Source of the DNA: a virus
Lineage: Duplodnaviria > Heunggongvirae > Uroviricota > Caudoviricetes
IMG/VR virus record: IMGVR_UViG_3300011399_000002
Location: 55,871-119,870 of that record
DNA: 64,000 bases
Reading direction: 5' to 3' (one strand)
Position numbers and translations under genes: made by a program. The notes under the pieces were generated by a model. The model saw only the letters and a program-made list of their open reading frames with translations. It had not been told where the DNA came from and did no database searches. Shown here in pieces: positions 2,315 through 53,202 of the stretch (within the stretch, counting starts at the first letter, position 1; every line of letters begins with the position of its first letter).

Positions 2315-2522
2315 CTTTGCAGACATTATCCCTGACCTTGGGATACAGTTAGGTATCTCTGACATTACCTATTTAGATGTAGCAATCAATCAATCGAGGT
2401 ACTATGGCTACGAAGAAACAGCGGAGTGGTTCGAATACTGGAAGGAAAGGTTTGCACGATCCATCAGGGAGGAGTGGTATGTCGTGGGCGATCCCGAAGC
2501 TACCTTCGATCCCAACGGGTAA
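2307..2522 (+). CDS. hypothetical protein
   Basis: 71-aa ORF, ATGA overlap with deaminase stop. Confidence 0.3.
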   Translation: MNNFADIIPDLGIQLGISDITYLDVAINQSRYYGYEETAEWFEYWKERFARSIREEWYVVGDPEATFDPNG

Positions 2523-3042
2523 TCGAATTGCTTTCTTTGGTCCAATGGCATCAGGTAAAACTTACTGCGCTGACTATCTTGAATCCCAGTATGGGTACCA
2601 CAAGTTTACACTAGCAAGTAAGTTAAAGTCTATATGCTACGAGTTATATGGGATTCAAAGCAAGGACGGCGATGGCAGGAGAATGTACCAAGAAGTAGGT
2701 GATGCGTTAAGATCATTTGATAACGACGTATTCACCAAGTACACTCTGTCCTCTATCAATCAACGTTACTCTACTGAGAAGGTTGTTATTGATGACCTAA
2801 GATTACCAGCAGAGGCTACTTTGCTCAAAGAAGCAGGGTTTATTCTGGTGGGTATAAATACACCGTTTGATGTACGGCAGGAGAGGATCGACCGGCTCTA
2901 TCCAAGCGTCCCACAAGGCCGACAGAGCCACGCTACGGAGGTTTCTTGGGAAGCGATACCGATGGACACCTCCGTCAATTCCTCTGGCCCAGCGGACCTC
3001 ACAGATTTAGATGATTTAATGGCGTTCTATGACACAGATTAA
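2479..3042 (+). CDS. P-loop kinase (dNMP kinase / polynucleotide kinase-like)
   Basis: Walker A FFGPMASGKTY; start placed at ATG 2479 after GGGAGGAG RBS; T4 gp1-like small kinase size. Confidence 0.55.
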   Translation: MSWAIPKLPSIPTGNRIAFFGPMASGKTYCADYLESQYGYHKFTLASKLKSICYELYGIQSKDGDGRRMYQEVGDALRSFDNDVFTKYTLSSINQRYSTEKVVIDDLRLPAEATLLKEAGFILVGINTPFDVRQERIDRLYPSVPQGRQSHATEVSWEAIPMDTSVNSSGPADLTDLDDLMAFYDTD

Positions 3043-3586
3043 GATTGTTTTAGTAGGCAGCAATTCCATTGCTCGTCAGCGTGTTGCACGCTACCTAATG
3101 TACGAGGGCTTCACTCGTATGCATATGCTAGAGGGAGCCAAGCGAGCATTCAAATTGTTCTATGGCCCATCGTTTAGAACTAACACAGTTGCACCACAGA
3201 AGAAGGTGGACCTCTATGATGCTGTGTACAAGGTACTACCCGATGCATTTTTAGAGTACCTAAATTACCGTGTAATAAGAAGCGGGAAGAATATTGTAGT
3301 ACCAGATGCACGGTACGTTGATGAGGTTACATACCTTCATGATGAGTTAGGTTTTTGTATCGTAAGAGTCACTAGTGACTACAAGATGGTACGTCCGGGT
3401 AATGCTGTACGTGATGCGGGACCGGGAACAACTGTTCTTTATGAATCCTTTCTTCCATCCTTTAATGCTGCTAGTTACATGTACACACCTTACTACAGTG
3501 TCCATTGGTACGGAGACAAGGAAAAGGACAGGACAAGGGCCGCAGTAAAGCAAATGATAGACACCTTGAACCTCGGCTGGAAGTAG
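3029..3586 (+). CDS. hypothetical protein
   Basis: 185-aa ORF, ATGA overlap with kinase; no clear motif. Confidence 0.4.
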   Translation: MTQIKIVLVGSNSIARQRVARYLMYEGFTRMHMLEGAKRAFKLFYGPSFRTNTVAPQKKVDLYDAVYKVLPDAFLEYLNYRVIRSGKNIVVPDARYVDEVTYLHDELGFCIVRVTSDYKMVRPGNAVRDAGPGTTVLYESFLPSFNAASYMYTPYYSVHWYGDKEKDRTRAAVKQMIDTLNLGWK

Positions 3587-3598
3587 CGTACAATATTT

Positions 3599-4096
3599 GT
3601 GAACCCCATTCATTGGAGGTTCATCATGAGTAAAAGAAGTGCACACCTAACAAGGTTAACGATAGAAGGGATCAGCAGCTTCTCAGCATATAAAGGCGGG
3701 AGGCTTAACTATATCAGGGACTATGATCCTGACCCGACAATCAACGTTGACCTAACAGCAAAGATGGACGTAGAGCGGGCCATAAAAATCCTCTATGAAA
3801 GAGGGGAGTTAACCAAACAAGAAGTACAGATGCTTTTCTATGTAATGCTAGATGGTCGTCTATCAAGGCGGGATATAAGCAAAATGATCCAAGACCATGA
3901 AGGCTACTACGTAGACCAAAGAACCATCAGTAGAAGACTTGACTCAGCATACGGCAAGATATCAAAGTTTCTTGGCTATGAATACTCTGATGGCAGGGTC
4001 TTTAAGATGGTAGCAAAAGCATGGGGCAGACCTCATCCCTATATACTATCTGATGAGGAGATTGATAAGGTACAGACAGTTATGGAGCGTGTGTAA
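3599..4096 (+). CDS. putative HTH / sigma-region-4-like regulatory protein
   Basis: C-terminal RTISRRLDSAYGKISKFLGY resembles sigma region 4 HTH; weak. Confidence 0.35.
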   Translation: MNPIHWRFIMSKRSAHLTRLTIEGISSFSAYKGGRLNYIRDYDPDPTINVDLTAKMDVERAIKILYERGELTKQEVQMLFYVMLDGRLSRRDISKMIQDHEGYYVDQRTISRRLDSAYGKISKFLGYEYSDGRVFKMVAKAWGRPHPYILSDEEIDKVQTVMERV

Positions 4097-4290
4097 TGCC
4101 TAGGGGACGGCCTAGAAAGTATCCTGTTGTAGAAGAGGAACAACCAAAGACAATTCAATGGCTCATAGCAGAGGTAGCGCACGAATACTGTGGCATACCC
4201 GGATGCACAACTAAGTTACACTTACAGGAAGCATCACAGATAATGGACACCCTAAAGGATAATGGGTTTCAGATAAAGGAGAATGGTTAA
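4096..4290 (+). CDS. hypothetical protein
   Basis: 64-aa ORF, TAATG overlap. Confidence 0.3.
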   Translation: MPRGRPRKYPVVEEEQPKTIQWLIAEVAHEYCGIPGCTTKLHLQEASQIMDTLKDNGFQIKENG

Positions 4291-4516
4291 TTTGGCACGC
4301 TGCGTAGTATGCGAGCGAGTTACTAGTGGTTCGCTAGAGTTTTGTAGAAAGCACTATAACGATTTCAAGGACGACATTGCTGATAAGAAGCCTTGGGTCC
4401 GTGTATTAAAGAATGAATCCCAAAGAGAGCGAAGACGAAACAATAAAGAGTACGATAACACATCATTAGATGCAATCATTGACGGAGAATATATGTCTTA
4501 CCGGGATCGCTATTAA
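4283..4516 (+). CDS. hypothetical zinc-ribbon protein
   Basis: CVVC...FCRKH motif, 77 aa. Confidence 0.3.
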   Translation: MVNLARCVVCERVTSGSLEFCRKHYNDFKDDIADKKPWVRVLKNESQRERRRNNKEYDNTSLDAIIDGEYMSYRDRY

Positions 4517-4533
4517 GAAGGGGAGATATTTAG

Positions 4534-5571
4534 TTGGAAGATTTCATACGTTGGAGCCAGTATCCAGAGATACTTAACCGACTACTAGAGTTAGATGCCT
4601 CGCGGTATACGCAAGGTGAAATGTCAAGCATTATTAGAAGTGAATATCCTGAGGAAGTCAAGAGACTACCAAGCAGGGACCAGATAAAGAATGCCCTAGC
4701 CTATGCACGGGGACGAGCAGAATACATTGGCAATCGCCCTCGCGCACAGATCATGCCTTACTATGACAAGTATAGATTAGAAATCGAGGGAGTGAATGTA
4801 GTTGAGAAGGATTATGCCCTTTTACAATCGATTCTTGAAAAGCCAAAGCGCAAGGTACTCGTACTATCAGACCTACACGTACCATTCACAAATGAATCGA
4901 AACTACAGAAGGCCATAGACCTTAACCGCTCCGCTGATATTGTTGTTATCGGTGGAGACTTTTTAGATATGTATGGGTGTTCAAGGCACCGAAAGAGGAC
5001 CAATGTTCCACATGAAATTGAAGTTGATAACGGCATTCGCGTACTTGAATATCTCTCAGATGTGTTTCCTTGGGTGCGCATCATACGAGGCAATCATGAT
5101 GCTCGCGCGATGAAGAAGGTACAAGATGTTGTACCCGCTGAGTTGCTATACCTATTTGATAACGAACCCCTAGACCTAATGGTCAAGCCATTCTCCAACG
5201 TGGAGTATCTTGGTAACTGGTGGACACAACTAGGTGATACAATCGTAGCACATGCAGAAAGAAGTAGCACAATAGAAGGTAGACCGGCAGTATTACTTGG
5301 TAATTATTTTGAAGAGAAGGGCTGGGCCAAGAGATTAAAGCTACCTGAGATACGTGTCTATGTACAGGCTCATACGCACCAAGTATCCGCTGTCTATAGA
5401 GAAGACAAAAAATACTTTGAGTGCGGAGCATTAGTAGACGACCAATCCACTGCCGCAGAATATGTGACAGACTCTACCGCTTTCATGCGACCACCCCTTC
5501 ATGGTTGCGTGTCCTTGACACAGGTTAATGGTAGGACGGACTTCAACCAGAGCAGGGAGTATATCTTATAG
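4534..5571 (+). CDS. calcineurin-like metallophosphoesterase
   Basis: DLHVP, GGDFLD, GNHD, AHTH motif series of the metallophosphatase fold. Confidence 0.65.
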   Translation: MEDFIRWSQYPEILNRLLELDASRYTQGEMSSIIRSEYPEEVKRLPSRDQIKNALAYARGRAEYIGNRPRAQIMPYYDKYRLEIEGVNVVEKDYALLQSILEKPKRKVLVLSDLHVPFTNESKLQKAIDLNRSADIVVIGGDFLDMYGCSRHRKRTNVPHEIEVDNGIRVLEYLSDVFPWVRIIRGNHDARAMKKVQDVVPAELLYLFDNEPLDLMVKPFSNVEYLGNWWTQLGDTIVAHAERSSTIEGRPAVLLGNYFEEKGWAKRLKLPEIRVYVQAHTHQVSAVYREDKKYFECGALVDDQSTAAEYVTDSTAFMRPPLHGCVSLTQVNGRTDFNQSREYIL

Positions 5572-5927
5572 TGGAGACATTCTTATTACTCATCGTGCTT
5601 GTGGGTGTAGTAATCCTATGGGCCTATGACAAGTACAAGTTAAGACAATACACCGACGAGTACAACCATTTCAGTGAAGTGTTTGAGCTGGTCATGGACG
5701 GACAGGAAGATGTGGTCAGGGTAGTGAACGTAAATGCGTCCTCCCTACGCAGCCTACAGGCCACCGTAGACAGGCAGGACAAGAACGTTGCGATCCTGAG
5801 TACCCTCGTAGAGTTACATGCTGAGACACTAAAGGTAGGGGCAGACTTACGAAGTAAGTTAGAGTCAACAGCAATTCTTGATCTGCCTGTAGAGGAATTA
5901 GTTGATGAAGATGTTAACGAAGATTGA
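5571..5927 (+). CDS. hypothetical membrane-anchored protein
   Basis: N-terminal hydrophobic segment FLLLIVLVGVVILWAY; ATGG overlap. Confidence 0.35.
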   Translation: METFLLLIVLVGVVILWAYDKYKLRQYTDEYNHFSEVFELVMDGQEDVVRVVNVNASSLRSLQATVDRQDKNVAILSTLVELHAETLKVGADLRSKLESTAILDLPVEELVDEDVNED

Positions 5928-6132
5928 AGACGAGAAGATACTTAAATTAGCACTACGATTAGGACAAAAAATAGCGCCTCTAGATGCAAACCTAGAGGCG
6001 CAGGTAATAGAGATCGTTGAGGTGCTTAGAGAAGCATTCGACATAGGCTACTGGTCAGGGTTTAATGAAGGTGATCGTGACGGATATGATCGTGGCTATA
6101 ATGATGGACACGAAGACGGGTCTAGACAGTAG
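5902..6132 (+). CDS. hypothetical protein
   Basis: 76-aa ORF ending immediately before terminator. Confidence 0.3.
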   Translation: MMKMLTKIEDEKILKLALRLGQKIAPLDANLEAQVIEIVEVLREAFDIGYWSGFNEGDRDGYDRGYNDGHEDGSRQ

Positions 6133-6135
6133 GAA

Positions 6136-6170
6136 GGGGAGCAATCAAACGATTGCTCCCCTCTTTTTTA
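6136..6170. terminator. bidirectional rho-independent terminator
   Basis: GGGGAGCAATC-aaac-GATTGCTCCCC stem followed by TCTTTTTTATTT; sits between convergent plus and minus gene blocks. Confidence 0.6.
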
Positions 6171-6171
6171 T

Positions 6172-6795
6172 TTACCCTGAGATTGCTAACGGGATTCCTG
6201 TTTCCCGTGAGGCAATTGCTACCTCAATAGTTTCATCGAAGAATGGCTCTAGGACTTCATAAGCCATCTTTGCTACGTCTTTATATGTTTCTAGTACATA
6301 GACAGGGACTTGGATTTCCTCACCATCAATCATCTTAGACTCGTACTTACGAGTACCATTCTCATTGACTGCTCGTAGGTCATTCCAAGCGATAATCACT
6401 TGGCCTATCCCCTCGCCCATGCGATCACCGGCAGGTCCCCGTAGCCAAGGACTATCAGGAGCCTCATCTTCAAGGTCAAACCTATTAAGTTGTGACTCTA
6501 GAGAATTGTAATCATCATAAGAGGTTCTATCGGCTACGTCACCATAGCCCGCATTATATAGGAAGTTGGTAATCAAACCATTGTTAGCGGCTACACCTAG
6601 ATTGAATGCAGTTTGTGCTAGGATACAACCAGCCTTTGGTTGAAACTTATCCTCGATGTAGACGTTCTCCCCGAACCAAGTTTCACGAAGATGCTCAAAA
6701 CCATTCTTCTCTAGAGCAGCATAGACCTCACGTAGGGTGATGGTCTTAGTCTCTAGTTTGATATCGTTCTCGGGATCAATAATAATCGAAGGCAT
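6172..6795 (-). CDS. hypothetical protein, paralog family A
   Basis: Shares REVYxALxxNGFxHLR...GCILAQxAxNL block with ORFs 7131-7727 and 26733-27083. Confidence 0.5.
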   Translation of the reverse strand: MPSIIIDPENDIKLETKTITLREVYAALEKNGFEHLRETWFGENVYIEDKFQPKAGCILAQTAFNLGVAANNGLITNFLYNAGYGDVADRTSYDDYNSLESQLNRFDLEDEAPDSPWLRGPAGDRMGEGIGQVIIAWNDLRAVNENGTRKYESKMIDGEEIQVPVYVLETYKDVAKMAYEVLEPFFDETIEVAIASRETGIPLAISG

Positions 6796-6873
6796 TTACT
6801 TATCTCCTTTAAATATTATAAGATACATTATCCACATGATCAAACCTAATATCAATATCTCCATACGATCATC

Positions 6874-7134
6874 CTAAAATTTTGGGGGAGGAATTTCTCC
6901 AACTTTTTCCAAAGACATTGCTGCATCTATTAGGGCAGCATACCAAACAACGCGGGTAGGAAATAGCCCACGTTCATACTTGCTAACAGTAGATAGAGAA
7001 ACACCAGCCATGTTAGCGAATTCTTGCTGGCTCATCCCATTTAAAAGGCGCGTACTCTTTAGTACGCTCATTGTATAGTTAAGGCTCTCTAATCCTGCGG
7101 CTTGGTGGTAGTTGGTTAGATCAAGTTTCCTCAA
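6874..7134 (-). CDS. XRE-family helix-turn-helix transcriptional regulator
   Basis: LLNGMSQQEFANMAGVSLSTVSKYERG HTH. Confidence 0.6.
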   Translation of the reverse strand: MRKLDLTNYHQAAGLESLNYTMSVLKSTRLLNGMSQQEFANMAGVSLSTVSKYERGLFPTRVVWYAALIDAAMSLEKVGEIPPPKF

Positions 7135-7727
7135 AAAGCACCAACCTCTGCTAGTTGCTCATCAATCTTCATGGAATCATACTCAGCAGATATGACGTAG
7201 ATTACCTTCTTAAAATGGGGCTTCAAAACATCATAGGCCATATCTAGTACGTCTTTGTAAGTAGGAAGGGCATAGTTTCCATTTTCATCCCCCTTATCAT
7301 TCCAATGAATGATAGTTTGAGCGCAGTTTCCAAACGTATGCCATTTACTGTCGGGAGGAACACCAAAGCGATTTAGCTGGTGGGATAGAGTATACTCATT
7401 AAGTCTTTCTATAAGCACATCGGAGTTATTGCTGGTACGGTAGATATGGGTGAGGACAGGGACTTCTTTGGCCTCAGTCTCTATATCCCACTCTGGTAGG
7501 AGATTGAGGTTGAGTGCTGCTTGCCCCAAAATACAAGCACCTACAATCTTACCCTTGGCTTTGCTACTATAATCCTGTAATAGCCACTCGCCCCGAAGGT
7601 GGGTGAAGCCATTCTCTTTAAGGGCTTCATAAACCTCCCTAACTGTTAGTTTGGTTAGGGAAGCCTCGTATACGTATACACCTTTACCATCGTAGCCGTA
7701 CTTGATCTTCTTAGTAACCGTTTCCAT
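7131..7727 (-). CDS. hypothetical protein, paralog family A
   Basis: Paralog of 6172-6795 (VREVYEALKENGFTHLRGEW...GACILGQAALNL). Confidence 0.5.
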   Translation of the reverse strand: METVTKKIKYGYDGKGVYVYEASLTKLTVREVYEALKENGFTHLRGEWLLQDYSSKAKGKIVGACILGQAALNLNLLPEWDIETEAKEVPVLTHIYRTSNNSDVLIERLNEYTLSHQLNRFGVPPDSKWHTFGNCAQTIIHWNDKGDENGNYALPTYKDVLDMAYDVLKPHFKKVIYVISAEYDSMKIDEQLAEVGAF

Positions 7728-7735
7728 ATCAACTC

Positions 7736-7996
7736 CTATTGTAGTAGACGGACTTTTTTATTATCCGTGACAAACACTTTGAAAAACTTTACCATGCCAT
7801 CTGTAACTTCACCAAAGCAAACAACATGGAATCTCCACGGTGGCATTGGATCAGGTGGCATGACAATTATATGTTCAGGATCATCGTAGATGCTAATATT
7901 GTCTTTACATTTTACACAGGTAACATAAGCCGGTGTAGTGATAAGTTGTATCTGAAACTGGTCATGTTCCCGAGTCATCAAATGTCCTAGTAGCAA
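7736..7996 (-). CDS. hypothetical protein
   Basis: 86-aa ORF, Cys pairs (CVKCKD ... VVCFGE). Confidence 0.3.
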   Translation of the reverse strand: MLLGHLMTREHDQFQIQLITTPAYVTCVKCKDNISIYDDPEHIIVMPPDPMPPWRFHVVCFGEVTDGMVKFFKVFVTDNKKVRLLQ

Positions 7997-8561
7997 GGCG
8001 CGTCTTATACGTTTCTGCGTTCTGGCGCTCTGCCTCTAGATCATTTTTGAGAAGGAGATTTTCTCGGTTTCTTTCCGTTAGTGCCTGTAATAATTGTATC
8101 GCCTCCTCGCCTAGGGGATTAGGTGTAAAGGACATAACCTCCTCTGGATTCATGTTGGCTTCCATAACAGCAGCCCTAGCCTTCTCGATTGCTAGACGCT
8201 GATTTATATACTCTAGTACATGGGGCACTGTCATAGACATTTTACGAGCATCCTGTGAAATCTTAGTTTCTACTAGGCGATCTTCATTACGGGCTGAAAT
8301 ACCAGAGATTGGTGCCATACGTAGTAGTTTTACACCTACTACCGGACTTCTCTGAGCAGATTCATCTTCTCTTATTAATTCAATTTCACCAAGACGCTCC
8401 AAACGATAGAGTGTCTGGTATACTTGTGAATAATTAAGACCCGTTTTACCTATTAGTTGATCAACTGTGATATTTACCTCTCTTTCCCCCGGAGACAGCA
8501 GAATTTCTCGTACCCTATCCTGCATTGCTCCCCGTAGAGAGTCCTTTGTAACCATAACCAT
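7962..8561 (-). CDS. hypothetical DNA-binding protein
   Basis: 199 aa, wHTH-like YQTLYRLERLGEIELI, coiled-coil C-terminus; translationally coupled to AAA+ ATPase. Confidence 0.4.
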   Translation of the reverse strand: MVMVTKDSLRGAMQDRVREILLSPGEREVNITVDQLIGKTGLNYSQVYQTLYRLERLGEIELIREDESAQRSPVVGVKLLRMAPISGISARNEDRLVETKISQDARKMSMTVPHVLEYINQRLAIEKARAAVMEANMNPEEVMSFTPNPLGEEAIQLLQALTERNRENLLLKNDLEAERQNAETYKTRLATRTFDDSGT

Positions 8562-17873: not shown

Positions 17874-18271
17874 AATTCAAAGTCTCTGATATCAATGATG
17901 ACGATCCTGAGATTTGGGTAAGTGTATTCGGGCGCAAGATAAAGACTGCTGCCGATGCATTTGAATTTCTCTATGAGCATCCAAACGCTTATGATCACGA
18001 TGATCAAAATGAATGGGATAAACTCACACTAAAGGATCGCTGGTCTGAGTCTCATGGTCAATTCATTGAACACATGACTCTTAGTGTAAGTAAAAAGGGT
18101 GTTTGGCTAGAGACTGGTCCTATCTATTGGGAAGATCAATTCCCTGATATGTACAAGCCTAGATGGCACACCAATATGCACGATATCCGTCTTGATGTTG
18201 GTGCAAAGACCTTTGAGAAGGCTCTCATTAAACTGGCAAAGAAAGTGAGAAAGTATTACGGTGACTATTAA
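17870..18271 (+). CDS. hypothetical protein
   Basis: 133-aa ORF, ATGA overlap. Confidence 0.45.
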   Translation: MKFKVSDINDDDPEIWVSVFGRKIKTAADAFEFLYEHPNAYDHDDQNEWDKLTLKDRWSESHGQFIEHMTLSVSKKGVWLETGPIYWEDQFPDMYKPRWHTNMHDIRLDVGAKTFEKALIKLAKKVRKYYGDY

Positions 18272-18962
18272 ATATTACAAAGTCGGTGGCGCAGTAAGAG
18301 ATGAAATCCTTGGTGTTAGGTCCAAGGATATTGATTTCGCAGTCGAGGCAGATAGTTACGAGGAAATGCGTGACGATCTTCTCAGTAAGGGCTCAATCAT
18401 TTGGCAGGAGCGCCCTGAATTCTTTGCAATCAGGGCTAAGCATCCAGATTTTGGCCCGGTAGATTTTACCCTATGCAGAAAGGAAGGGTTCTACTCCGAT
18501 AATAGGCATCCCGATAGCGTTGAGATTGGTACGATCTATGATGATCTTGCCCGTCGTGACTTTACAGTCAATGCTATTGCTCTGGATTTTACTGAGACTT
18601 CCTCAACAACATTGATTGATCCTCATGGTGGCGTAATCGACATTTCTAAGAATTTGCTTAGGTGTGTTGGTTCTCCTGAGGAAAGATTTACTGAGGACCC
18701 TCTAAGAATTCTACGTGCAGTTAGATTTCATATTGTGCGCGGGTTTGATCTGGACTTTGATCTAGAGGTAAGTCTTAGTTCTTTCCCTCTAATTGATGGC
18801 TTGAAGAAAATCCCTCTAGAGAGAATTTACGAGGAACTAAACAAGTGCTTTGCTCATGATACTTGGAACACGCTAATGTTCCTTGATAAGCATGAGTACC
18901 TGAAAGATGTAATCTTCCTAGAAATGGGTCTGAAACTGGCCCCAAGAATTAATGGTGACTAA
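18261..18962 (+). CDS. tRNA nucleotidyltransferase (CCA-adding enzyme) head-domain protein
   Basis: Class II polymerase-beta NTase signature GGAVRDEILGVRSKDIDFAV at N-terminus, RDFTVNA; 233 aa. Confidence 0.7.
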   Translation: MTIKYYKVGGAVRDEILGVRSKDIDFAVEADSYEEMRDDLLSKGSIIWQERPEFFAIRAKHPDFGPVDFTLCRKEGFYSDNRHPDSVEIGTIYDDLARRDFTVNAIALDFTETSSTTLIDPHGGVIDISKNLLRCVGSPEERFTEDPLRILRAVRFHIVRGFDLDFDLEVSLSSFPLIDGLKKIPLERIYEELNKCFAHDTWNTLMFLDKHEYLKDVIFLEMGLKLAPRINGD

Positions 18963-28228: not shown

Positions 28229-28431
28229 GTGCATACTATGAACTCATTAGAACTGAGTTTATCAACTTTGAGTATTCAGGTGAGAGTATTCAAGTTTGTC
28301 TAAATTGTGGTATAGAGATACAGGATGGTGAACGTATTCTAAGAGAAGTATTTAGAGTTATGGGGCATGATGATCATCTAGTATCTCTATGGCATATTCC
28401 TTGTTGGTATAGTGTGGAGACTGTAGAGTGA
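28225..28431 (+). CDS. hypothetical protein
   Basis: 68 aa, ATGA overlap. Confidence 0.4.
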   Translation: MSAYYELIRTEFINFEYSGESIQVCLNCGIEIQDGERILREVFRVMGHDDHLVSLWHIPCWYSVETVE

Positions 28432-29090
28432 AAGAATATCACAAGATTGACTCAGTATATAAGAGAGATGAAAGAGGAAAGTTTCTACTTGGTGAATTCT
28501 CTCGTCCTGAGTTTGAGTATCTAAAAGACCTTCCTTGGCTATGGACAGAGAAGATTGATGGTACTAATATCAGGGTAATGTGGAAGCCTGATGCTGCTTT
28601 TCCTGATGAGCCCTATATTAGTTTTGGAGGTAAGACTGAAAATGCTCAAATTCCCACTAAACTATATAGCCATCTAGCAACAACGTTTGCTCCATTGATG
28701 AATCAACTAATTGATACATTTGGAGAGACAGAAGTTTGTCTTTATGGTGAGGGATATGGAGCAGGAATTCAGAAGGGTGGAGGAAACTACTCTCCTGATC
28801 AAAAATTCATTCTCTTTGATGTAAAGATCGGAGATTGGTGGTTGACTAGGGAGAACGTAGAGGATATTGGGCGTAAGTTAAATATTCCTGTTGTACAACT
28901 AGGTCCACGCTATACTCTTTCTGAGATGATTGAGTATGTTGAACAAACTGCTAGGCTTCTAGAAGGAGCCCCATTTTCTAATATTGGAACAGCAAAAATT
29001 GAGGGTTGGGTAGGAACACCTGCTATTCCTCTATTTGCACGTAATGGTGATCGTATTATTACCAAGGTTAAGTATAGGGACTTTAAGTAA
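28428..29090 (+). CDS. RNA ligase-like nucleotidyltransferase (Rnl2-type)
   Basis: Motif I WTEKIDGTNIRV (KxDGxN), downstream YGEGYGAGIQKGG; size of an Rnl2 adenylyltransferase domain. Confidence 0.55.
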   Translation: MKEYHKIDSVYKRDERGKFLLGEFSRPEFEYLKDLPWLWTEKIDGTNIRVMWKPDAAFPDEPYISFGGKTENAQIPTKLYSHLATTFAPLMNQLIDTFGETEVCLYGEGYGAGIQKGGGNYSPDQKFILFDVKIGDWWLTRENVEDIGRKLNIPVVQLGPRYTLSEMIEYVEQTARLLEGAPFSNIGTAKIEGWVGTPAIPLFARNGDRIITKVKYRDFK

Positions 29091-48462: not shown

Positions 48463-49461
48463 GTGTTAGGGTTTCTAGCGTTTCTAGTCGTAGTGCTTAT
48501 TTTTGGAGCGATTACGGCATTTTTTATCCTCAGACGCTTAAACTATGAGCGTAAGTGGGCAACACTAAATGAATACGGTAATAAAGAAAAGGTAGAGCGT
48601 GATCCGCCTAGCATTGTACCTGCGATTGTTTTTGCAGTCGTTGGGTTTGTCCTAATCATAGGAACAGGCGGAATCAGAGAGATTCCAGCGGGCCACGTAG
48701 GGGTTATTACTTCATTCGGTAGAGTTACCGAAGGAACATTACCATCGGGTCTAACATACGTTATGCCCGTCGTTAATCAGGTTGTCATTCTTGACACCCG
48801 TGTCCAGTCTTACGAATTTACTGACCTACAGGGCGCAACAAGCGATACTCAGGCAGTTACGCTTTCAGGTTCAGTTAACTACCGAATCGATGGAGCAACG
48901 GCTTGGAAGTTGTATCGTGATGTTGGTGAAGACTTTGCAGTCAGAGTTTTCCAGCGTCCAGCAGATACGGCACTAAAGACAATTACACCTAGATATACTG
49001 CTACTGATATCATCGGTAAGCGTGACGAAATTGCTTCATTAGCAACGCAACTTCTCCGTCCATCCGTTGAGCAGTACGGTATCTCTGTAGAGGCATTCTA
49101 TGTCTCTAACATTGGCCTAAATCAAGCATTCCTAAATGCAGTTGAAGCGAAGCAGATTGCTAATCAGCAAGTGCTAACTCAGAAGCAGATTACCGCGCAA
49201 AAGGAAGAGCAGAAGAAGCAAGCAAAGATTGATGCAGAAGGACGAGCAGATGCCGCTAGAGCAGCAGCAAATGGTGAAGCCGATGCAATTCGATCACTAG
49301 CAGATGCACAGGCAGATGCAAACAAGTTGCTAAATAACTCACTAACACCTGAGTTAATTCAGTATACATTGATCAACAAGTTAAGTCCTACGATTAAGAC
49401 TATGATTCTTCCTGATGGACAGAATTTCATCCTTGATCCTAAGGCACTTCTTGGTCAGTAA
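48463..49461 (+). CDS. SPFH/band-7 (stomatin/prohibitin-like) membrane protein
   Basis: N-terminal TM helix then band-7 core and Ala/Gln-rich coiled coil. Confidence 0.7.
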   Translation: MLGFLAFLVVVLIFGAITAFFILRRLNYERKWATLNEYGNKEKVERDPPSIVPAIVFAVVGFVLIIGTGGIREIPAGHVGVITSFGRVTEGTLPSGLTYVMPVVNQVVILDTRVQSYEFTDLQGATSDTQAVTLSGSVNYRIDGATAWKLYRDVGEDFAVRVFQRPADTALKTITPRYTATDIIGKRDEIASLATQLLRPSVEQYGISVEAFYVSNIGLNQAFLNAVEAKQIANQQVLTQKQITAQKEEQKKQAKIDAEGRADAARAAANGEADAIRSLADAQADANKLLNNSLTPELIQYTLINKLSPTIKTMILPDGQNFILDPKALLGQ

Positions 49462-50099: not shown

Positions 50100-50174
50100 G
50101 GCTCCGAACCTAAACGGACAAGGGTCTGTCTGCAAAACAGATTTTAGTGGGTTCGACTCCCACCGGAGTCTCCA
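50100..50174 (+). tRNA. tRNA-Cys (anticodon GCA)
   Basis: 75 nt, acceptor GGCTCCG/CGGAGTC, anticodon stem TCTGT/ACAGA loop CTGCAAA, T-arm GTGGG-TTCGACT-CCCAC, discriminator U, CCA. Confidence 0.65.
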
Positions 50175-50407: not shown

Positions 50408-51937
50408 ATGGCAAGATTAAACGCAACTAAGCGAACAAGGGTTACAGAAACATTAGCAGAGGAAACTACAACTAACCTAGCAGGTGGGAAGGCTTTTAAG
50501 TTAACTCCCCATGCAAAGTTAATTGAACAGGTTGTAGGTGCGTTCTGGAACGAGGATTTGTACTACGCTAAGGGCTCTAAGACTTCCGCACAGATTGTGC
50601 AGGGTGTTAAGGACGTAGCAAAGGATGATCCTAGATTCCCACTACAGCTAGCAGCATACGCTAGAAACGTTCTCTATCTGCGAACAACCCCACAGGTTTT
50701 GCTTGTGGAAGCATCACGTATTGAAGCGTGCAAGCCATTCGTTCGTGAATATACTTCAAAGATTGTAAAGCGAGCAGACGAATTAACTGATATCGTTGCT
50801 TACTACACTTCTACATCAGGCTCACACAAGGGCTTCCCTAACTCTCTAAAGAGAGGACTGGCTGATGCATTCGTGAAGTTTGATGAATACCAGTTAAATA
50901 AGTATGACTCTTCAAAGTCAGTTGTAACACTTGGTCAGGTAGCACAGTTAGTGCACCCAGCGTTGGGTAAGGCTATGTACAACTTCCTCACAAAGGATGA
51001 AGTTGATGCAGAGGCTCTTCCTAAGATTGGGGCTCTAAAGGCTCTATTGGCTAAGGATAAGATTGATGCAGAGGCTATCGAGTTAATCGGTAAGTCAAAT
51101 GTAACTTGGGAAACCCTTATCTCAAAGTTTGGGGCATCCAAGGAAACTTGGGAATTAGTAATTCCTAATATGGGTTATATGGCACTTCTTAGAAACCTAA
51201 GAAACTTCGAACAGAAGGGTGTCAATCTAACTCCTGTATTAGCACGGATTGCAAATCCTGAGGAAGTAAAGCGCTCAAAGCAACTTCCATATCGGTTCTA
51301 TTCTGCTTACCTACAGGTATCAGAACAGAAGGTGCAGCGTGCAATCGCTCAGGCGTTTGAACACAGCATTTCAAATGTCCGACTTGAAGGTCGTACAGCC
51401 GTTATGGTAGACTTGTCTGGAAGCATGGGATCAGCACTATCGGATAAGTCAGCAATGTCCTATCGAAACGTGGGTACCGTGCTTGGAGCCATCGTTGTAA
51501 AGAAGTCAGAGGAATCTGTAGCAATTGGTTTCGGTGATACCGCGCAGATTGCAAAGATCAACCCTGATGACACAATGATGACAAATATTGATAAGATTGA
51601 TAAGTTACCAGTGGGTCACTCAACTAATGCCTATCGAGGCTTCCAAGTCTTGGGCAACAGAGTAGTTGATCGTGTGGTAGTTATCTCTGATATGCAGTGC
51701 TACGGTGGTAACGAATACTACGGTAGTGGCCTATCAAACGCTTGGGATGAATACGTGAAGAACGTAAATCCAAATGCAAGACTCTACTCGCTAGATGTTA
51801 GCGCATATGGATCAAAGCAATTCCCAAGCAGAAAGAACAACGTTGTAACTCTTAACGGCTGGTCAGACAAGATCATCGATATGATTGGTGTCTACGAACG
51901 TGAAGGTGCAATGCTTGATGAGGTTAGAAAGTGGTAG
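50408..51937 (+). CDS. rsr: Ro60 ortholog Rsr (TROVE domain + vWA domain)
   Basis: N-terminal NLAGGKAFKL...VVGAFWNEDLYY matches the Rsr/Ro60 signature (NPAGG...GSxxGTYY), C-terminal vWA with MIDAS VMVDLSGSMGS; 509 aa. Confidence 0.75.
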   Translation: MARLNATKRTRVTETLAEETTTNLAGGKAFKLTPHAKLIEQVVGAFWNEDLYYAKGSKTSAQIVQGVKDVAKDDPRFPLQLAAYARNVLYLRTTPQVLLVEASRIEACKPFVREYTSKIVKRADELTDIVAYYTSTSGSHKGFPNSLKRGLADAFVKFDEYQLNKYDSSKSVVTLGQVAQLVHPALGKAMYNFLTKDEVDAEALPKIGALKALLAKDKIDAEAIELIGKSNVTWETLISKFGASKETWELVIPNMGYMALLRNLRNFEQKGVNLTPVLARIANPEEVKRSKQLPYRFYSAYLQVSEQKVQRAIAQAFEHSISNVRLEGRTAVMVDLSGSMGSALSDKSAMSYRNVGTVLGAIVVKKSEESVAIGFGDTAQIAKINPDDTMMTNIDKIDKLPVGHSTNAYRGFQVLGNRVVDRVVVISDMQCYGGNEYYGSGLSNAWDEYVKNVNPNARLYSLDVSAYGSKQFPSRKNNVVTLNGWSDKIIDMIGVYEREGAMLDEVRKW

Positions 51938-52075
51938 AAATCATAGTCCTTGTCCTGCTCTTCGGAATAGGAACGTTCTTGATCGGATTTGGGTTTGGTC
52001 GTTGGGGGTTGGAAACAACTATCGATGACCAACAGGCCCAAATCGAAGCACTTACTGGCGATCAAAATATATCTT

Positions 52076-52135
52076 AGTAGTGTAGTTTACGGTTACTTCT
52101 TTGCTTGAAACGAAATTAACACCGTACACGTTTTA
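52076..52135 (+). ncRNA. conserved-motif hairpin (element A of TAGTGTAG family)
   Basis: TAGTGTAGtttACGGTTACTTC...; TACGGTTA/TAACaCCGTA stem; 17 nt upstream of tRNA-Glu. Confidence 0.3.
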
Positions 52136-52151
52136 ATCTCTAGGATTTAAT

Positions 52152-52226
52152 GGCCCTATCGTCTATCGGATAGGACACCAGACTTTCAATCTGATAAGCG
52201 GGGTTCGACTCCCCGTAGGGCTACCA
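52152..52226 (+). tRNA. tRNA-Glu (anticodon UUC)
   Basis: Acceptor GGCCCTA/TAGGGCT, loop CTTTCAA, T-arm CGGGG-TTCGACT-CCCCG, CCA. Confidence 0.65.
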
Positions 52227-52237
52227 AAGACAACTTA

Positions 52238-52390
52238 ATAATAGTCTAGTGTCGGAAACGGTTACTTCTACAAACTTTTTGTTTCACTAACAAACCATCT
52301 AGTCCGGGTAATGCGGATCAGGTTGTGTGCGAAGCATGATTGACTCTAAGGAAAGGACTTAGTGACGAATCGGAAGTAAGACGATAAAGC
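52238..52390 (+). ncRNA. element B of TAGTGTAG family (candidate Y-RNA-like RNA)
   Basis: CTAGTGTCggaaACGGTTACTTC; GTTACTTC can pair with GGAAGTAAG ~110 nt downstream; no ORF. Confidence 0.3.
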
Positions 52391-52557
52391 CTCCGTTCCA
52401 TTTAATCTGACTATTACAATCTTTGCCCATTCAGTAGCAATGGACGCCAAACAAGCAGTCACCGGGCCATGTGGACTATACTGGTAGGGATATGGCTGTT
52501 GAGGTAGGAATGGTCCACCATGTTTATTGCTACCGAATGCGCAAAGCGCAGAATTTA

Positions 52558-52700
52558 GGATAGTGTAGATAACAGTTACTTCTCTTTGGGCGACGTGATG
52601 TGGGTTCGAATCCTACTCTCCCAACAAAATCGATGGGAGATAGCTTAATGGTAAAGCGCGAAAATTTCTGTAGTCGCTTTAATCTTCCTAAAATAGTCAT
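52558..52700 (+). ncRNA. element C: Y-RNA-like RNA with tRNA-like module
   Basis: TAGTGTAGataACAGTTACTTC, then T-arm GTGGG-TTCGAAT-CCTAC, 7-bp loop-capped helix TCTCCCA/TGGGAGA, then D-arm GCTT-AATGGTA-AAGC. Confidence 0.4.
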
Positions 52701-52795
52701 CGCTCACCCAGTAGACGAATTCATACAAGGCAGAACGTAAGGGTTGCAACCGCCCGCCTATGAAATGGTCTACCGGATGCGCGACGGCGCATCAA

Positions 52796-52915
52796 TCTTT
52801 AGTGTAGTGTTTGTTACGGTTCCTTCGATAAATGTATATCAATTGACTTCAAATCAATCTTTGTAGGTTCAAGTCCTACAGGAATAATGTCCGTAGCGCC
52901 TCTATCCTCACTAAT
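52796..52915 (+). ncRNA. element D: Y-RNA-like RNA enclosing a tRNA-like cloverleaf (anticodon-position UCA)
   Basis: TTAGTGTAG pairs with CTA(tcct)CACTAA ~95 nt downstream; enclosed 52818-52887 folds as acceptor GGTTCCT/AGGAATA, D GATA/TATC, ATTGA-CTTCAAA-TCAAT, T-arm GTAGG-TTCAAGT-CCTAC, no CCA. Confidence 0.4.
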
Positions 52916-52922
52916 ATATCGC

Positions 52923-52999
52923 TCTCCTATGGTGTAACTAGGTAAGCATACCTGTCTGTTAAACAGTTGGTATAGGTTCGAATCCTGTTGGGAGAGCCA
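52923..52999 (+). tRNA. tRNA-Asn (anticodon GUU), tentative
   Basis: Acceptor TCTCCTA/TGGGAGA, loop CTGTTAA, T-arm ATAGG-TTCGAAT-CCTGT, CCA; U1-A72 start unusual. Confidence 0.5.
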
Positions 53000-53004
53000 A
53001 CTTT

Positions 53005-53202
53005 TTGAGGTGTTATATGGCAAACTTCAAGCGCAAGCACCCTAAGCACAGAATCCTACGGGATTGCAATGCTCATTGTAAATACGATGGAAGTCACTAT
53101 ACTAGTATAAATGGTAGGGAAAGATACCTACCGATGTATTGGAAGAAGGTGGGTGGAAGACACGCTTGGAGATACCTACATAAGAACGTAGACATTCGCT
53201 GA
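53005..53202 (+). CDS. hypothetical basic protein
   Basis: 65 aa, His/Lys/Arg-rich, between two tRNAs. Confidence 0.3.
   Translation: MRCYMANFKRKHPKHRILRDCNAHCKYDGSHYTSINGRERYLPMYWKKVGGRHAWRYLHKNVDIR

What the first reader, a model, noticed from the sequence alone, without database searches (positions are those of the whole stretch)
50408..52999. Ro60/Rsr ortholog followed by four ORF-free tRNA-like (Y-RNA-like) repeats inside the tRNA island
CDS 50408-51937 carries the Rsr/Ro60 N-terminal signature and a C-terminal vWA domain with a MIDAS motif. Bacterial and phage Rsr proteins are normally encoded next to Y RNAs (YrlA type) whose effector module mimics a tRNA. The 1 kb directly downstream has no ORFs. 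It contains four copies of TAGTGTAG-N5-7-AC(G/A)GTT(A/C)CTTC, at about 52088, 52248, 52563 and 52803, interleaved with real tRNAs. Copies C and D add T-arm hairpins with TTCGAAT/TTCAAGT loops and a D-arm-like GCTT-AATGGTA-AAGC hairpin. In copy D the 5-prime motif can pair with CTAtcctCACTAA about 95 nt downstream, so the tRNA-like module is closed by a terminal stem. That matches the YrlA layout. Phage Rsr/Y-RNA modules are known, but this is a multi-copy set embedded in a tRNA cluster, next to RNA-repair-type genes elsewhere in the window.
Basis: partly seen in the sequence, partly recalled or inferred. Interest (0 to 1): 0.85.

Follow-up and report, generated by a model that had tools for sequence, protein, structure and literature searches.

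The report
Phage Ro60 gene with four Y-RNAs
A phage carries a Ro60 (Rsr) RNA-binding protein gene followed by four small structured RNAs that share one stem scaffold but have different tips (two tRNA-shaped); the same scaffold lies beside Ro60 genes in many other phages, including crAss-like gut phages, and no RNA database or paper I could search describes it.

Summary
CDS 50408-51937 is a Ro60/Rsr protein: TROVE E 1.5e-35, a Ro60-type vWA domain, and Thermus phage phiLo Ro60 as the closest solved structure.

Downstream lie four complete RNA units, not just motif copies:
- A: 52072-52145
- B: 52241-52414
- C: 52555-52691
- D: 52799-52914

Each unit has an outer stem with a bulged U, an internal loop, an 8-bp inner stem, an invariant UUACUUC, and then a variable insert. 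The inserts are:
- A: a 22-nt loop.
- B: a 124-nt multi-hairpin.
- C: a permuted tRNA-like domain, as in YrlA.
- D: a whole cloverleaf with anticodon UCA, but no encoded CCA and no GG in the D loop.

Both stems covary across about 80 units from related loci. Decoy controls fail, and an unbiased RNAalifold run recovers the fold. The scaffold sits next to Ro60 genes on the same strand in diverse phages, including Arthrobacter phage Atuin and crAss001.

It lacks the canonical GNCGAA Ro-binding motif and fails Rfam's YrlA threshold (27 vs 69 bits). I therefore call it a new variant of the Y RNA kind. Rsr binding and function are inferred, not shown.

The parts
50408..51937 (+). Ro60/Rsr protein gene (509 aa): TROVE ring plus a C-terminal vWA domain with a MIDAS motif
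   Evidence: Pfam TROVE 123.7 bits and vWA_Ro60 31.4 bits. MIDAS residues are invariant in 37 relatives. The best solved relative is Thermus phage phiLo Ro60 (9KOP/9L5Y), E 2.2e-32 over residues 20-495.
52072..52145 (+). Unit A, short-loop type (like YrlB/Yrn2). Outer stem 52072-77 pairs with 52140-45; bulged U at 52078; AG 52079-80 pairs with CU 52138-39; inner stem 52085-92 pairs with 52122-29; UUACUUC at 52093-99; 22-nt loop.
   Evidence: Python unit scan. The minimum-free-energy fold reproduces both stems. It is the top hit (14.9 bits, E 0.054 in 15 kb) of a model built without any window sequence.
52152..52226 (+). tRNA-Glu(UUC) with encoded CCA, lying between units A and B
   Evidence: ARAGORN; Rfam tRNA 55 bits.
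52241..52414 (+). Unit B. Outer stem 52241-46 pairs with 52409-14; inner stem 52254-61 pairs with 52393-400; UUACUUC at 52262-68 can pair with GAAGUAA at about 52374-80. The 124-nt multi-hairpin insert has the conserved 3' half GACUCUAAGGAAAGGACUUAGUGACGAAUCGGAAGUAAGACGAUAAAGCCU.
   Evidence: The same insert type occurs in L086 5934-6108 and L090 5566-5736, with compensatory changes in 14 of 41 pairs.
52428..52550 (+). X1: a conserved structured element of unknown role between units B and C. It has a long closing helix (CAUUCAGUAGCAAU... paired with ...AUUGCUACCGAAUG) followed by the hairpin GCGC-AAA-GCGC.
   Evidence: 18 of 20 positions pair. Homologous elements occur in L002, L008, L082 and L084, with covarying distal helices. 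No Rfam match.
52555..52691 (+). Unit C, YrlA type. Outer stem 52555-60 pairs with 52686-91; inner stem 52568-75 pairs with 52668-75; UUACUUC at 52576-82; T arm 52600-16; closed 7-bp acceptor stem 52617-23 paired with 52634-40; D arm 52643-57.
   Evidence: Rfam YrlA partial hit, 27 bits, model positions 27-81. RNAalifold on 16 homologous units recovers every helix.
52695..52793 (+). X2: a second copy of the X element, directly after unit C. It has the leader AGUCAUCGCUCA, the helix CACCCAGUAGAC paired with GUCUACCGGAUG, and the hairpin GAUGCGC-GACG-GCGCAUC.
   Evidence: The hairpin was also flagged as terminator-like at 52776-52793.
52799..52914 (+). Unit D. Outer stem 52799-804 pairs with 52909-14; inner stem 52812-19 pairs with 52891-98; core variant UUCCUUC at 52820-26. 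The insert is a complete cloverleaf in normal tRNA topology (52818-52887, anticodon UCA). Its 5' acceptor strand is the scaffold's own core motif.
   Evidence: The fold has z -2.76 and shows the cloverleaf inside the two stems. Rfam tRNA 49.1 bits and ARAGORN 'SeC(tca)'. Related D-type units occur in L002, L082 and L084.
52923..52999 (+). tRNA-Asn(GUU) with encoded CCA, directly after unit D
   Evidence: ARAGORN; Rfam tRNA 56.5 bits.

Best explanation
The locus is a phage Ro60 (Rsr) ribonucleoprotein module: one Rsr gene plus four Y-RNA-like noncoding RNAs on the same strand, inside the phage's tRNA island.

Scaffold. Every RNA is built on one two-helix scaffold:
- a 6-bp outer stem;
- a bulged U;
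- an A-G/C-U clamp;
- an internal loop (5' side UGUA, 3' side about GCUUUAAU);
- an 8-bp inner stem ending in YRG;
- the nearly invariant sequence (U/A)UACUUC.
This matches the helix / loop / helix / YUAY layout of bacterial YrlA, but with different conserved nucleotides.

Proposed mechanism.
- I infer that this scaffold is the Rsr docking site.
- The variable tips would then decide what Rsr is tethered to or gated for. They are a short loop, a 124-nt multi-hairpin, a permuted tRNA-like domain and a whole tRNA-shaped domain. This is how known Y RNAs tether Ro60 to PNPase.
- I also infer that the RNAs are made from a polycistronic transcript with the neighbouring tRNAs and released by tRNA-processing enzymes.
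- The tRNA-like tips may be substrates of RNase P and of the phage's own CCA-adding enzyme.

Shown here: the protein family, the RNA architecture, covariation, and genetic linkage to rsr across many phages.
Inferred: transcription, processing, Rsr binding and the downstream effect on RNA decay or tRNA metabolism.
For: Protein: TROVE plus vWA_Ro60, and phiLo Ro60 structures at E 2e-32.

Repeats: four exact core motifs against 0.09 expected.

Complete units:
- A 3' partner scoring >=10 exists for 112 of 191 5' motifs in their true context, against 52 of 955 decoy contexts.
- There are 145 units on the rsr strand against 18 on the other strand.
- In 80 non-redundant units, 94.4% of cells pair, with 429 double-change cells against 130 +/- 14 in shuffles. 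Slid registers pair at only 35-48%.
- G-U pairs are common, so the pairing is strand-specific, as expected for RNA.

Unbiased check: MAFFT plus RNAalifold on 16 whole C-type units predicts the outer stem, inner stem, T arm, closed acceptor stem and D arm, with compensatory changes in 25 of 27 pairs.

Linkage:
- 40 of 90 Rsr loci (30-68% identity) carry at least one unit on the rsr strand, against 4 on the other strand.
- In an IMG/VR motif scan, all 21 loci with a TROVE gene in reach also held complete units.
- Units flank Rsr in Arthrobacter phage Atuin and in crAss-like phages cr106_1 and crAss001.

Precedent:
- Bacterial Y RNAs occur as two or more per locus, one of them tRNA-like.
- D. radiodurans makes Yrn2-tRNAAsp-Yrn1 as one precursor.
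- M. smegmatis YrlA is cut by RNase P and receives CCA (PMC4201824).
- Phage phiLo Ro60 binds two adjacent Y-like RNAs and forms complexes with host PNPase (PMC12135203).

The window also encodes a CCA-adding-type nucleotidyltransferase and an RNA ligase.
Against: - There is no expression or binding data.
- The canonical Ro-binding motif GNCGAAN0-1G / CGAA is absent from the 5' strand of all four units.
- Rfam YrlA scores only 27 bits against a gathering score of 69. Relatives score 28-33 bits.
- Single-sequence folding energies of units A, B and C are not better than shuffles (z 0.02, -0.51, -1.43).
- In the 80-unit alignment the 3' partners were chosen by pairing, so that count is partly circular. 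The decoy test and one search are the independent controls.
- A covariance model of the spliced scaffold recovered only unit A, and weakly.
- The promoter and terminator scan is uninformative.
Confidence: 0.72

Rival explanations
1. Unit D is simply a functional opal-suppressor (or UGA-reading) tRNA gene with a base-paired leader and trailer. The other repeats would then be tRNA-operon processing or punctuation signals, for example nuclease or RNase P guide structures, with no relation to Rsr.
For: - The cloverleaf scores 49.1 bits with Rfam tRNA and ARAGORN calls it.
- Its anticodon loop CUUCAAA has U33 and A37, and its T loop UUCAAGU is canonical.
- The units sit between real tRNAs.
- Phages are known to carry suppressor tRNAs (my own knowledge).
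Against: - All nine other tRNAs in the window encode CCA (ARAGORN ends 3 nt beyond the Rfam ends); unit D does not.
- It has a G1-A72 mismatch and lacks the G18G19 pair in the D loop (alignment).
- Its 5' acceptor strand is the family-wide scaffold motif.
- Orthologous D-type units in L002, L082 and L084 have 3-4-bp acceptor stems and CUU/UUU-type loops.
- TGA ends 15 of 48 long ORFs, and reading TGA as sense merges no long ORFs.
- The scaffold follows rsr, not tRNAs. In crAss cr106_1 two units lie just downstream of the TROVE gene with no annotated tRNA nearby.
Confidence: 0.12
2. The units are tRNA-derived selfish or degenerate repeats (pseudo-tRNAs or a miniature mobile element) that accumulate in phage tRNA islands, and their nearness to rsr is incidental.
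For: Many inserts contain T arms or tRNA fragments. The units are most numerous in tRNA-rich regions.
Against: - Scaffold sequence and structure are conserved beside Rsr genes that share only 25-37% identity.
- The units are strictly co-oriented with rsr.
- Compensatory changes maintain two helices.
- No unit occurs at the other tRNA clusters of this window, at 17.5 kb and 58.4 kb.
- 120 motif hits in cellular genomes gave no TROVE-linked or convincing unit.
Confidence: 0.04
3. The scaffold is a structured RNA that binds a different conserved partner and is only co-regulated with Rsr. Candidates are a host exoribonuclease, a tRNA-modifying enzyme, or another protein encoded in the island such as the SPFH/Band 7 protein.
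For: The canonical CGAA Ro-binding motif is absent (sequence). An SPFH/Band 7 gene recurs near rsr in the window, in L090 and in crAss001.
Against: TROVE is the only gene I checked for systematically, and it was present beside the units in every collection where a linked gene could be looked for; Band 7 is absent from most of the loci whose gene calls I saw. The two-helix-plus-YUAY layout mirrors YrlA position by position.
Confidence: 0.1

Closest known systems
YrlA (Rfam RF02553), the tRNA-like Y RNA of Salmonella, M. smegmatis and mycobacteriophages (Chen et al. 2014, PMC4201824)
   Same: - It lies beside rsr on the same strand.
- Its 5' and 3' ends form an outer helix, an asymmetric internal loop, an inner helix and then YUAY.
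- The effector domain is a T arm, a closed acceptor stem and a D arm (unit C).
- A 7-bp acceptor stem whose loop starts with A-C(A/C)-A, as in the RNase P-cleaved M. smegmatis YrlA.
   Different: - The conserved Ro-site nucleotides differ: GG-U-AGUG-UA-G and (U/A)UACUUC in place of GNCGAAN0-1G.
- It fails the Rfam gathering score (27-33 bits against 69).
- The same scaffold also carries non-tRNA inserts and tRNA modules in normal topology.
- Arrays reach 4-7 units per locus.
YrlB / Yrn2-type short Y RNAs, and the D. radiodurans Yrn2-tRNAAsp-Yrn1 polycistron (PMC4201824)
   Same: A second, short hairpin Y RNA with a small loop accompanies the tRNA-like one (unit A). Y RNAs and a tRNA lie in one same-strand cluster next to rsr.
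   Different: Here there are four units with four insert classes, two tRNAs are interleaved, and two extra structured X elements are present. Co-transcription is inferred, not shown.
Thermus phage phiLo Ro60 with Yrl1/Yrl2 (PMC12135203; PDB 9KOP, 9L5Y)
   Same: A phage-encoded Ro60 with adjacent Y-like RNAs. Its protein is the closest solved relative of the window's protein (E 2.2e-32). It provides experimental precedent for phage Ro60-Y RNA-host PNPase complexes.
   Different: The phiLo RNAs use the CGAA motif and lie upstream of the gene. The phiLo locus contains no unit of the present scaffold.
Metazoan Y RNAs (Rfam RF00019)
   Same: A terminal stem with a bulged nucleotide and an internal loop serves as the Ro60 platform, with a variable apical module. 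There are several paralogous Y RNAs per genome.
   Different: There is no sequence relationship beyond a loose GGUAGUG resemblance, which I recall from memory and did not test. Metazoan Y RNAs have no tRNA-like module.

Membership tests
Ro60/Rsr (TROVE) proteins | TROVE (HEAT-repeat ring) domain | tested here: met
   PF05731, 123.7 bits against a cutoff of 23, E 1.5e-35.
Ro60/Rsr (TROVE) proteins | C-terminal vWA domain with a MIDAS motif (DxSxS...T...D) | tested here: met
   PF25045, 31.4 bits against a cutoff of 27.7. D335, S337, S339, T406 and D428 are invariant in 37 relatives.
Ro60/Rsr (TROVE) proteins | Full-length similarity to a structurally solved Ro60 | tested here: met
   phiLo Ro60 (9KOP/9L5Y), E 2.2e-32 over residues 20-495; RO60 (9NEN), E 3.8e-6.
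Ro60/Rsr (TROVE) proteins | Binds Y RNA and misfolded RNA | not testable with these tools
   Needs biochemistry.
YrlA (RF02553) | Reaches the Rfam gathering score (69 bits) | tested here: not met
   Unit C scores 27 bits, over model positions 27-81 only. Relatives score 20-33 bits. Units A, B and D have no hit.
YrlA (RF02553) | GNCGAAN0-1G motif near the 5' end (proposed Rsr site) | tested here: not met
   The 5' strands read ..AG-U-AGUGUAG.. in all four units and in 80 relatives. CGAA occurs only inside inserts.
YrlA (RF02553) | Encoded within 4 kb of rsr on the same strand | tested here: met
   The units lie 135-977 nt downstream of the rsr stop codon, on the + strand.
YrlA (RF02553) | The 5' and 3' ends pair into a long stem interrupted by an internal loop, followed by YUAY | tested here: met
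   The two helices are supported by covariation. UUAC (UUCC in unit D) follows the inner helix.
YrlA (RF02553) | tRNA-like domain in the order T arm, closed acceptor stem, D arm | tested here: met
   Unit C only: 52600-52657. Units A and B lack it. Unit D has the normal D, anticodon, T order.
YrlA (RF02553) | Bound by Rsr; carries tRNA modifications (pseudouridine 55, dihydrouridine) | not testable with these tools
   Experimental.
tRNA (cloverleaf inside unit D) | Cloverleaf scoring above the Rfam tRNA gathering score | tested here: met
   49.1 bits against 29. ARAGORN calls anticodon tca.
tRNA (cloverleaf inside unit D) | Paired 1-72 position and G18G19 in the D loop | tested here: not met
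   G1-A72 is flagged as non-standard, and the D loop AAUGUA has a single G (alignment).
tRNA (cloverleaf inside unit D) | Encoded 3' CCA, as in every other tRNA gene of this window | tested here: not met
   For all nine other tRNAs the ARAGORN end is the Rfam end plus 3 nt. For unit D the two ends are equal, and the following sequence is AUGUCC.
tRNA (cloverleaf inside unit D) | A decoding need for a UGA reader (stop-codon recoding) | tested here: not met
   TGA terminates 15 of 48 long ORFs. No long ORFs merge when TGA is read as sense.

The most novel reading that the evidence does not exclude
Many phages, including crAss-like gut phages, T5-sized freshwater and sediment phages and actinophages, use their own class of Y RNA with a private Rsr recognition code. 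In this reading it works as a cassette system.

One constant Rsr-docking scaffold displays interchangeable tips. Some tips are tRNA-shaped modules, in both permuted and natural topology, whose anticodon-like loops are UCA, CUU or UUU. Early in infection these RNPs would act as adaptors or decoys. They could lure or report host anticodon nucleases and other tRNA-targeting defences. Alternatively they could redirect host PNPase or tRNA-processing enzymes, working with the phage's tRNA set, CCA-adding enzyme and RNA ligase.

The X elements would then be a second, still uncharacterised scaffold class in the same arrays.
Probability: 0.15. Interest if true: 0.85.

Novelty: new variant of a known kind. 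Interest (0 to 1): 0.6.

Why it matters
- **Family size.** Ro60-Y RNA particles are conserved from bacteria to humans, yet only a handful of bacterial and phage Y RNAs have been studied, and all are recognised through the GNCGAA/CGAA motif. This locus reveals a second conserved scaffold that current models miss. It recurs beside very divergent phage Ro60 genes, so the Y RNA family is larger and more phage-centred than annotated.
- **Natural experiment.** The modular design (one scaffold, many tips, up to seven units per locus) shows directly which part of a Y RNA is the protein platform and which part is the effector.
- **Testability.** The scaffold is present in cultured phages. In crAss001 the TROVE gene is reported as an early gene (PMC8375218). 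Arthrobacter phage Atuin also carries it. What phage Ro60 RNPs do therefore becomes directly testable.
- **Annotation.** tRNA finders will call some of these modules as odd tRNAs. Here, the result was a spurious 'tRNA-SeC'.

Tried and rejected
- **Rfam, whole window at gathering threshold.** Only tRNAs were found.
- **Rfam, permissive thresholds.** The only relevant hit was the partial YrlA match. One Rfam search was wasted on a wrong E-value setting.
- **Rfam's full-length YrlA alignment of relatives.** It places the inner helix on the model's outer helix. I judged this a register error, because the units have two helices that map one-to-one onto YrlA's two helices.
- **Nucleotide search of GenBank phages.** Only tRNA-Glu matched, so there is no close cultured relative.
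- **MAFFT on whole short units.** It misaligned the 3' halves. I used anchored, spliced sequences instead.
- **Covariance model of the spliced scaffold.** It recovered only unit A (E 0.054). The variable inserts are much longer than the 4-nt linker that stands for them in this 52-position model.
- **Motif scan of 185,579 cellular genomes.** It therefore neither shows nor excludes cellular carriers.
- **Promoter and terminator scan.** Counts were near chance and it located no transcription start.
- **TGA recoding as a reason for a tRNA(UCA).** No support.
- **Hammerhead-like reading of the X elements** (AGUC..., and CUGAUGA in L008/L082). I considered it, but the window copies lack CUGAUGA and Rfam gave no ribozyme hit, so I dropped it.


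Full report
**The protein.** ORF 50408-51937 (+, 509 aa) matches Pfam TROVE (123.7 bits, E 1.5e-35) and the Ro60-specific vWA domain (31.4 bits against a cutoff of 27.7).
- A search of 5.8 billion proteins finds about 68 relatives at 50-68% identity, on contigs up to 124 kb, and more than 1,500 at E <= 1e-20.
- In an alignment of 37 relatives, the MIDAS residues D335, S337, S339, T406 and D428 are invariant.
- The closest solved structure is the Ro60 of Thermus phage phiLo, E 2.2e-32 over residues 20-495.
- tblastn finds Ro60-like genes in 285 GenBank phage records, all below 35% identity.

So the gene is a new member of a family already known in phages. The surrounding window is a phage genome of roughly 120 kb. 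It encodes DnaG primase, family A DNA polymerase, ribonucleotide reductase, NAMPT, a CCA-adding-type nucleotidyltransferase and an RNA ligase.

**The repeats are real.**
- ACRGTTMCTTC occurs exactly four times in 64 kb, all on the + strand within 740 nt downstream of rsr. Shuffles expect 0.09 copies.
- Each copy is preceded by TAGTGTMG.
- ARAGORN and Rfam place tRNA-Glu between copies A and B and tRNA-Asn after copy D. Both also call a cloverleaf with anticodon UCA that overlaps copy D.
- Rfam's YrlA model gives one sub-threshold partial hit, in copy C (52596-52657; 27 bits against a gathering score of 69; E 0.002-0.011). It covers exactly the T arm, closed acceptor stem and D arm.

**From repeats to complete units.** Comparison with the closest syntenic locus (L002, Rsr 66% identical) and 16 further close loci showed that each motif copy is the 5' half of a closed unit. 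In 5' to 3' order a unit has:
- a 6-nt outer strand;
- a bulged U;
- AG;
- about 4 unpaired nucleotides (UGUA);
- an 8-nt inner strand ending in YRG;
- (U/A)UACUUC;
- a variable insert;
- the complementary inner strand, beginning CYR;
- a loop of 6-9 nt (about GCUUUAAU);
- CU;
- the complementary outer strand.

The window holds four such units:

| Unit | Coordinates | Insert length |
|---|---|---|
| A | 52072-52145 | 22 nt |
| B | 52241-52414 | 124 nt |
| C | 52555-52691 | 85 nt |
| D | 52799-52914 | 64 nt |

No comparable unit occurs elsewhere in the window, including at the other tRNA clusters. The only other candidates are two weak, low-scoring matches, at 39407 on the + strand and one on the − strand. 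Minimum-free-energy folds of A, B and D reproduce both helices. For C only the outer helix is reproduced. Only D is thermodynamically exceptional (z -2.76).

**Is the pairing more than chance?**
- With the true downstream sequence, 112 of 191 5' motifs find a partner scoring >=10. With unrelated sequence, 52 of 955 do.
- Units are found 145 times on the rsr strand and 18 times on the other strand.
- In an ungapped alignment of 80 non-redundant spliced units, 94.4% of cells pair, and 14 of 16 pairs show changes on both sides.
- That alignment has 429 double-change cells, against 130 +/- 14 after shuffling. Sliding the partner by 1-3 columns drops pairing to 35-48%.
- The 3' partners in that alignment were selected by pairing, so I treat the decoy test and the next result as the independent evidence.
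- MAFFT plus RNAalifold on 16 whole, unspliced C-type units predicted, with no input from me, the outer stem, inner stem, T arm, 7-bp closed acceptor stem and D arm. Compensatory changes occur in 25 of 27 pairs.
- Frequent G-U pairs make the structure specific to the + strand, which argues for RNA rather than a DNA-level repeat.

**Link to Rsr.**
- The core motif lies on the rsr strand beside rsr in 22 of the first 81 loci, including loci whose Rsr is only 30-40% identical.
- Complete units occur in 40 of 90 loci on the rsr strand, against 4 on the other strand, with up to 7 per locus.
- A motif scan of IMG/VR returned 120 loci. Of these, 34 held complete units and 21 held a TROVE gene within the fetched stretch. 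All 21 also held units, with Rsr at 25-53% identity to the query.
It is uninformative rather than negative.
- Among 12 GenBank phage Rsr loci I fetched, units are present in Arthrobacter phage Atuin (two units flanking Rsr inside a large tRNA island) and in crAss-like cr106_1 (two units just downstream). The motif alone is present in csAssE-Sib.
- Units are absent from Thermus phiLo, Streptomyces Quantum, Vibrio phiKT1024, HGTV-1, Mx1, RsoM2USA and Gurke.
- crAss001, a cultured phage, has a 900-nt unannotated stretch after TROVE gp96. It holds two complete units plus two tRNA-shaped RNAs that carry the same core. Its TROVE gene is reported as an early gene, and no associated RNA is mentioned (PMC8375218).

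**Anatomy compared with YrlA.** The Rfam consensus reads cggCga-AUGCu-uggGgaa-CUAc ... uucCcca-aAaAcUuG-ucGccg. That is an outer helix, an asymmetric internal loop, an inner helix and then YUAY, which Chen et al. place at the start of the V loop (PMC4201824).
- The phage units map onto this element for element: outer helix with bulge, UGUA / GCUUUAAU loop, 8-bp inner helix, UUAC.
- The published Ro-site motif GNCGAAN0-1G (CGAA in phiLo, where mutating it weakens binding 3-4 fold; PMC12135203) is replaced by GG-U-AGUG-UA-G.
- I therefore regard cmscan's full-length alignments of relatives (28-33 bits) as out of register.
- The family is an architectural homologue or analogue of YrlA with a different recognition sequence.
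- None of the 24 related loci I scanned reaches the YrlA gathering score.

**The four tips.**
- **Unit A.** It has a short loop, like the 'long hairpin with a small loop' partners YrlB and Yrn2 (PMC4201824).
- **Unit B.** It carries a 124-nt multi-hairpin insert whose 3' half is nearly identical in L086 and L090. Its GAAGUAA can pair with the core UUACUUC.
- **Unit C.** This is the YrlA type. Its 7-bp acceptor stem and a loop beginning A-CAA recall M. smegmatis YrlA, which RNase P cleaves and which receives CCA (PMC4201824). Whether that happens here is inference.
- **Unit D.** It encloses a full cloverleaf in normal topology, and the core motif itself (here UUCCUUC) forms the 5' acceptor strand.

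I do not think the unit D cloverleaf is an ordinary tRNA gene, for these reasons:
- It alone among the ten tRNA calls lacks an encoded CCA.
- It has a G1-A72 mismatch and no G18G19.
- Orthologous units in L002, L082 and L084 have 3-4-bp acceptor stems plus an extra hairpin, and anticodon-like loops UCUUUAA or CUCUUAA.
- TGA is a normal stop codon in this window.

A suppressor function is not excluded.

**Mechanism.** I commit to the following.
- *Shown:* one Rsr gene, and four structured RNAs that share a covarying two-helix scaffold and are genetically coupled to Rsr across diverse phages.
- *Inferred from established Ro60 biology:* the scaffold docks Rsr, and the tips tether or gate it. PNPase is the known partner in D. 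radiodurans and Salmonella, and also for phiLo Ro60 with host PNPase (PMC4201824, PMC12135203).
- *Inferred from the same-strand arrangement among tRNAs and the D. radiodurans Yrn2-tRNAAsp-Yrn1 precedent:* the RNAs come from polycistronic transcripts processed by the tRNA machinery.

What the RNPs do for the phage is open. Candidates are reshaping host RNA decay, quality control of the phage tRNA set, or countering tRNA-targeting defences.

**What is and is not new.** Already published:
- phage Ro60 genes with adjacent Y RNAs;
- several Y RNAs per locus;
- one tRNA-like and one short hairpin Y RNA per species;
- co-transcription of Y RNAs with a tRNA.

I could not find the following in Rfam 15 or in full-text searches:
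- this scaffold sequence class;
- its use as a constant platform for at least four insert classes, including tRNA modules in natural topology;
- arrays of 4-7 units;
- its breadth in phages, including crAss-like gut phages.

I rate it a new variant of a known kind, of solid interest to specialists and readily testable.

**Caveats.**
- All functional statements are inferential.
- The unit detector is home-made. Its false-positive rate, judged from the opposite strand and from decoys, is roughly 5-12% at score >=10.
- Absence from the searchable literature is not proof that the family is unpublished.

Noticed in passing
window 52428-52550 and 52695-52793; also L002 3495-3628, L008 2997-3145, L082 6369-6512, L084 6299-6378: A second recurring structured element ('X') sits in the array. 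It has a leader AGUCAUCGCUCAYC. A 12-20-bp helix follows, CAUCCGGUAG... paired with ...CUACCGGAUG, with covarying distal pairs; window X1 has CAUUC/GAAUG instead. The interior is variable (28-97 nt), and a GCGC-GACG-GCGC hairpin ends the element. It usually follows a YrlA-type unit directly. It has no Rfam match and its function is unknown.
   Followed up: partly
window 51931-52077 (+): A 48-aa hydrophobic ORF starts at a GTG overlapping the rsr stop codon (GTGGTAG) and ends at the TAG inside unit A's outer stem. A similar ORF occupies the same place in L002. It has no Pfam match. The stretch downstream of rsr is therefore not entirely ORF-free.
   Followed up: partly
window 53005-53202 (+); L002 3976-4160: A conserved 65-aa, very basic ORF (MANFKRK...) is wedged between tRNA-Asn and tRNA-Gln. 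It has no Pfam match.
   Followed up: no
window 50100-50171 (+): Rfam calls a tRNA here (50.5 bits, anticodon loop CUGCAAA, i.e. GCA/Cys) that ARAGORN misses. Relatives carry a tRNA-Cys(GCA) at the same position, just upstream of rsr.
   Followed up: no
window 48463-49461 (+); L090 1817-2722; crAss001 gp91 (L343 4681-5610): An SPFH/Band 7 gene (Pfam E 8e-35) lies inside the tRNA island near rsr. A Band 7 gene also neighbours the TROVE gene in L090 and in crAss001. This may be a recurrent association.
   Followed up: no
window 18261-18962 (+) and 28428-29090 (+): The phage encodes a CCA-adding-type tRNA nucleotidyltransferase (PHROG E 2e-49; Pfam PolyA_pol head domain) and an RNA ligase. This tRNA repair and maturation kit could also act on the tRNA-like Y RNA tips.
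   Followed up: partly
L343 (Bacteroides phage crAss001, MH675552) locus 2410-3320: The unannotated 900 nt after TROVE gp96 holds two complete units (2507-2588 and 3080-3223). It also holds two tRNA-shaped RNAs with a normal acceptor stem and T arm whose middle section carries the GGU(A)GUG...GAGUUACUUC core. That is the inverse arrangement to YrlA.
   Followed up: partly
L042 2458-2723; L067 755-1158: An archaeal-type RNase P RNA (172 bits) sits in a dense tRNA array beside an rsr gene in the GC-rich locus L042. A tmRNA lies beside rsr in L067, and cr106_1 also has a tmRNA near its TROVE gene. Rsr genes seem to sit regularly among RNA genes.
   Followed up: no
L334 (Arthrobacter phage Atuin, OK040794) locus 2929-8444: The closest GenBank Rsr (32% identity) is also embedded in a large same-strand tRNA island of 20 or more tRNAs. 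Two units of the new scaffold lie in gaps between annotated tRNAs, at 3167-3272 and 5311-5452.
   Followed up: partly
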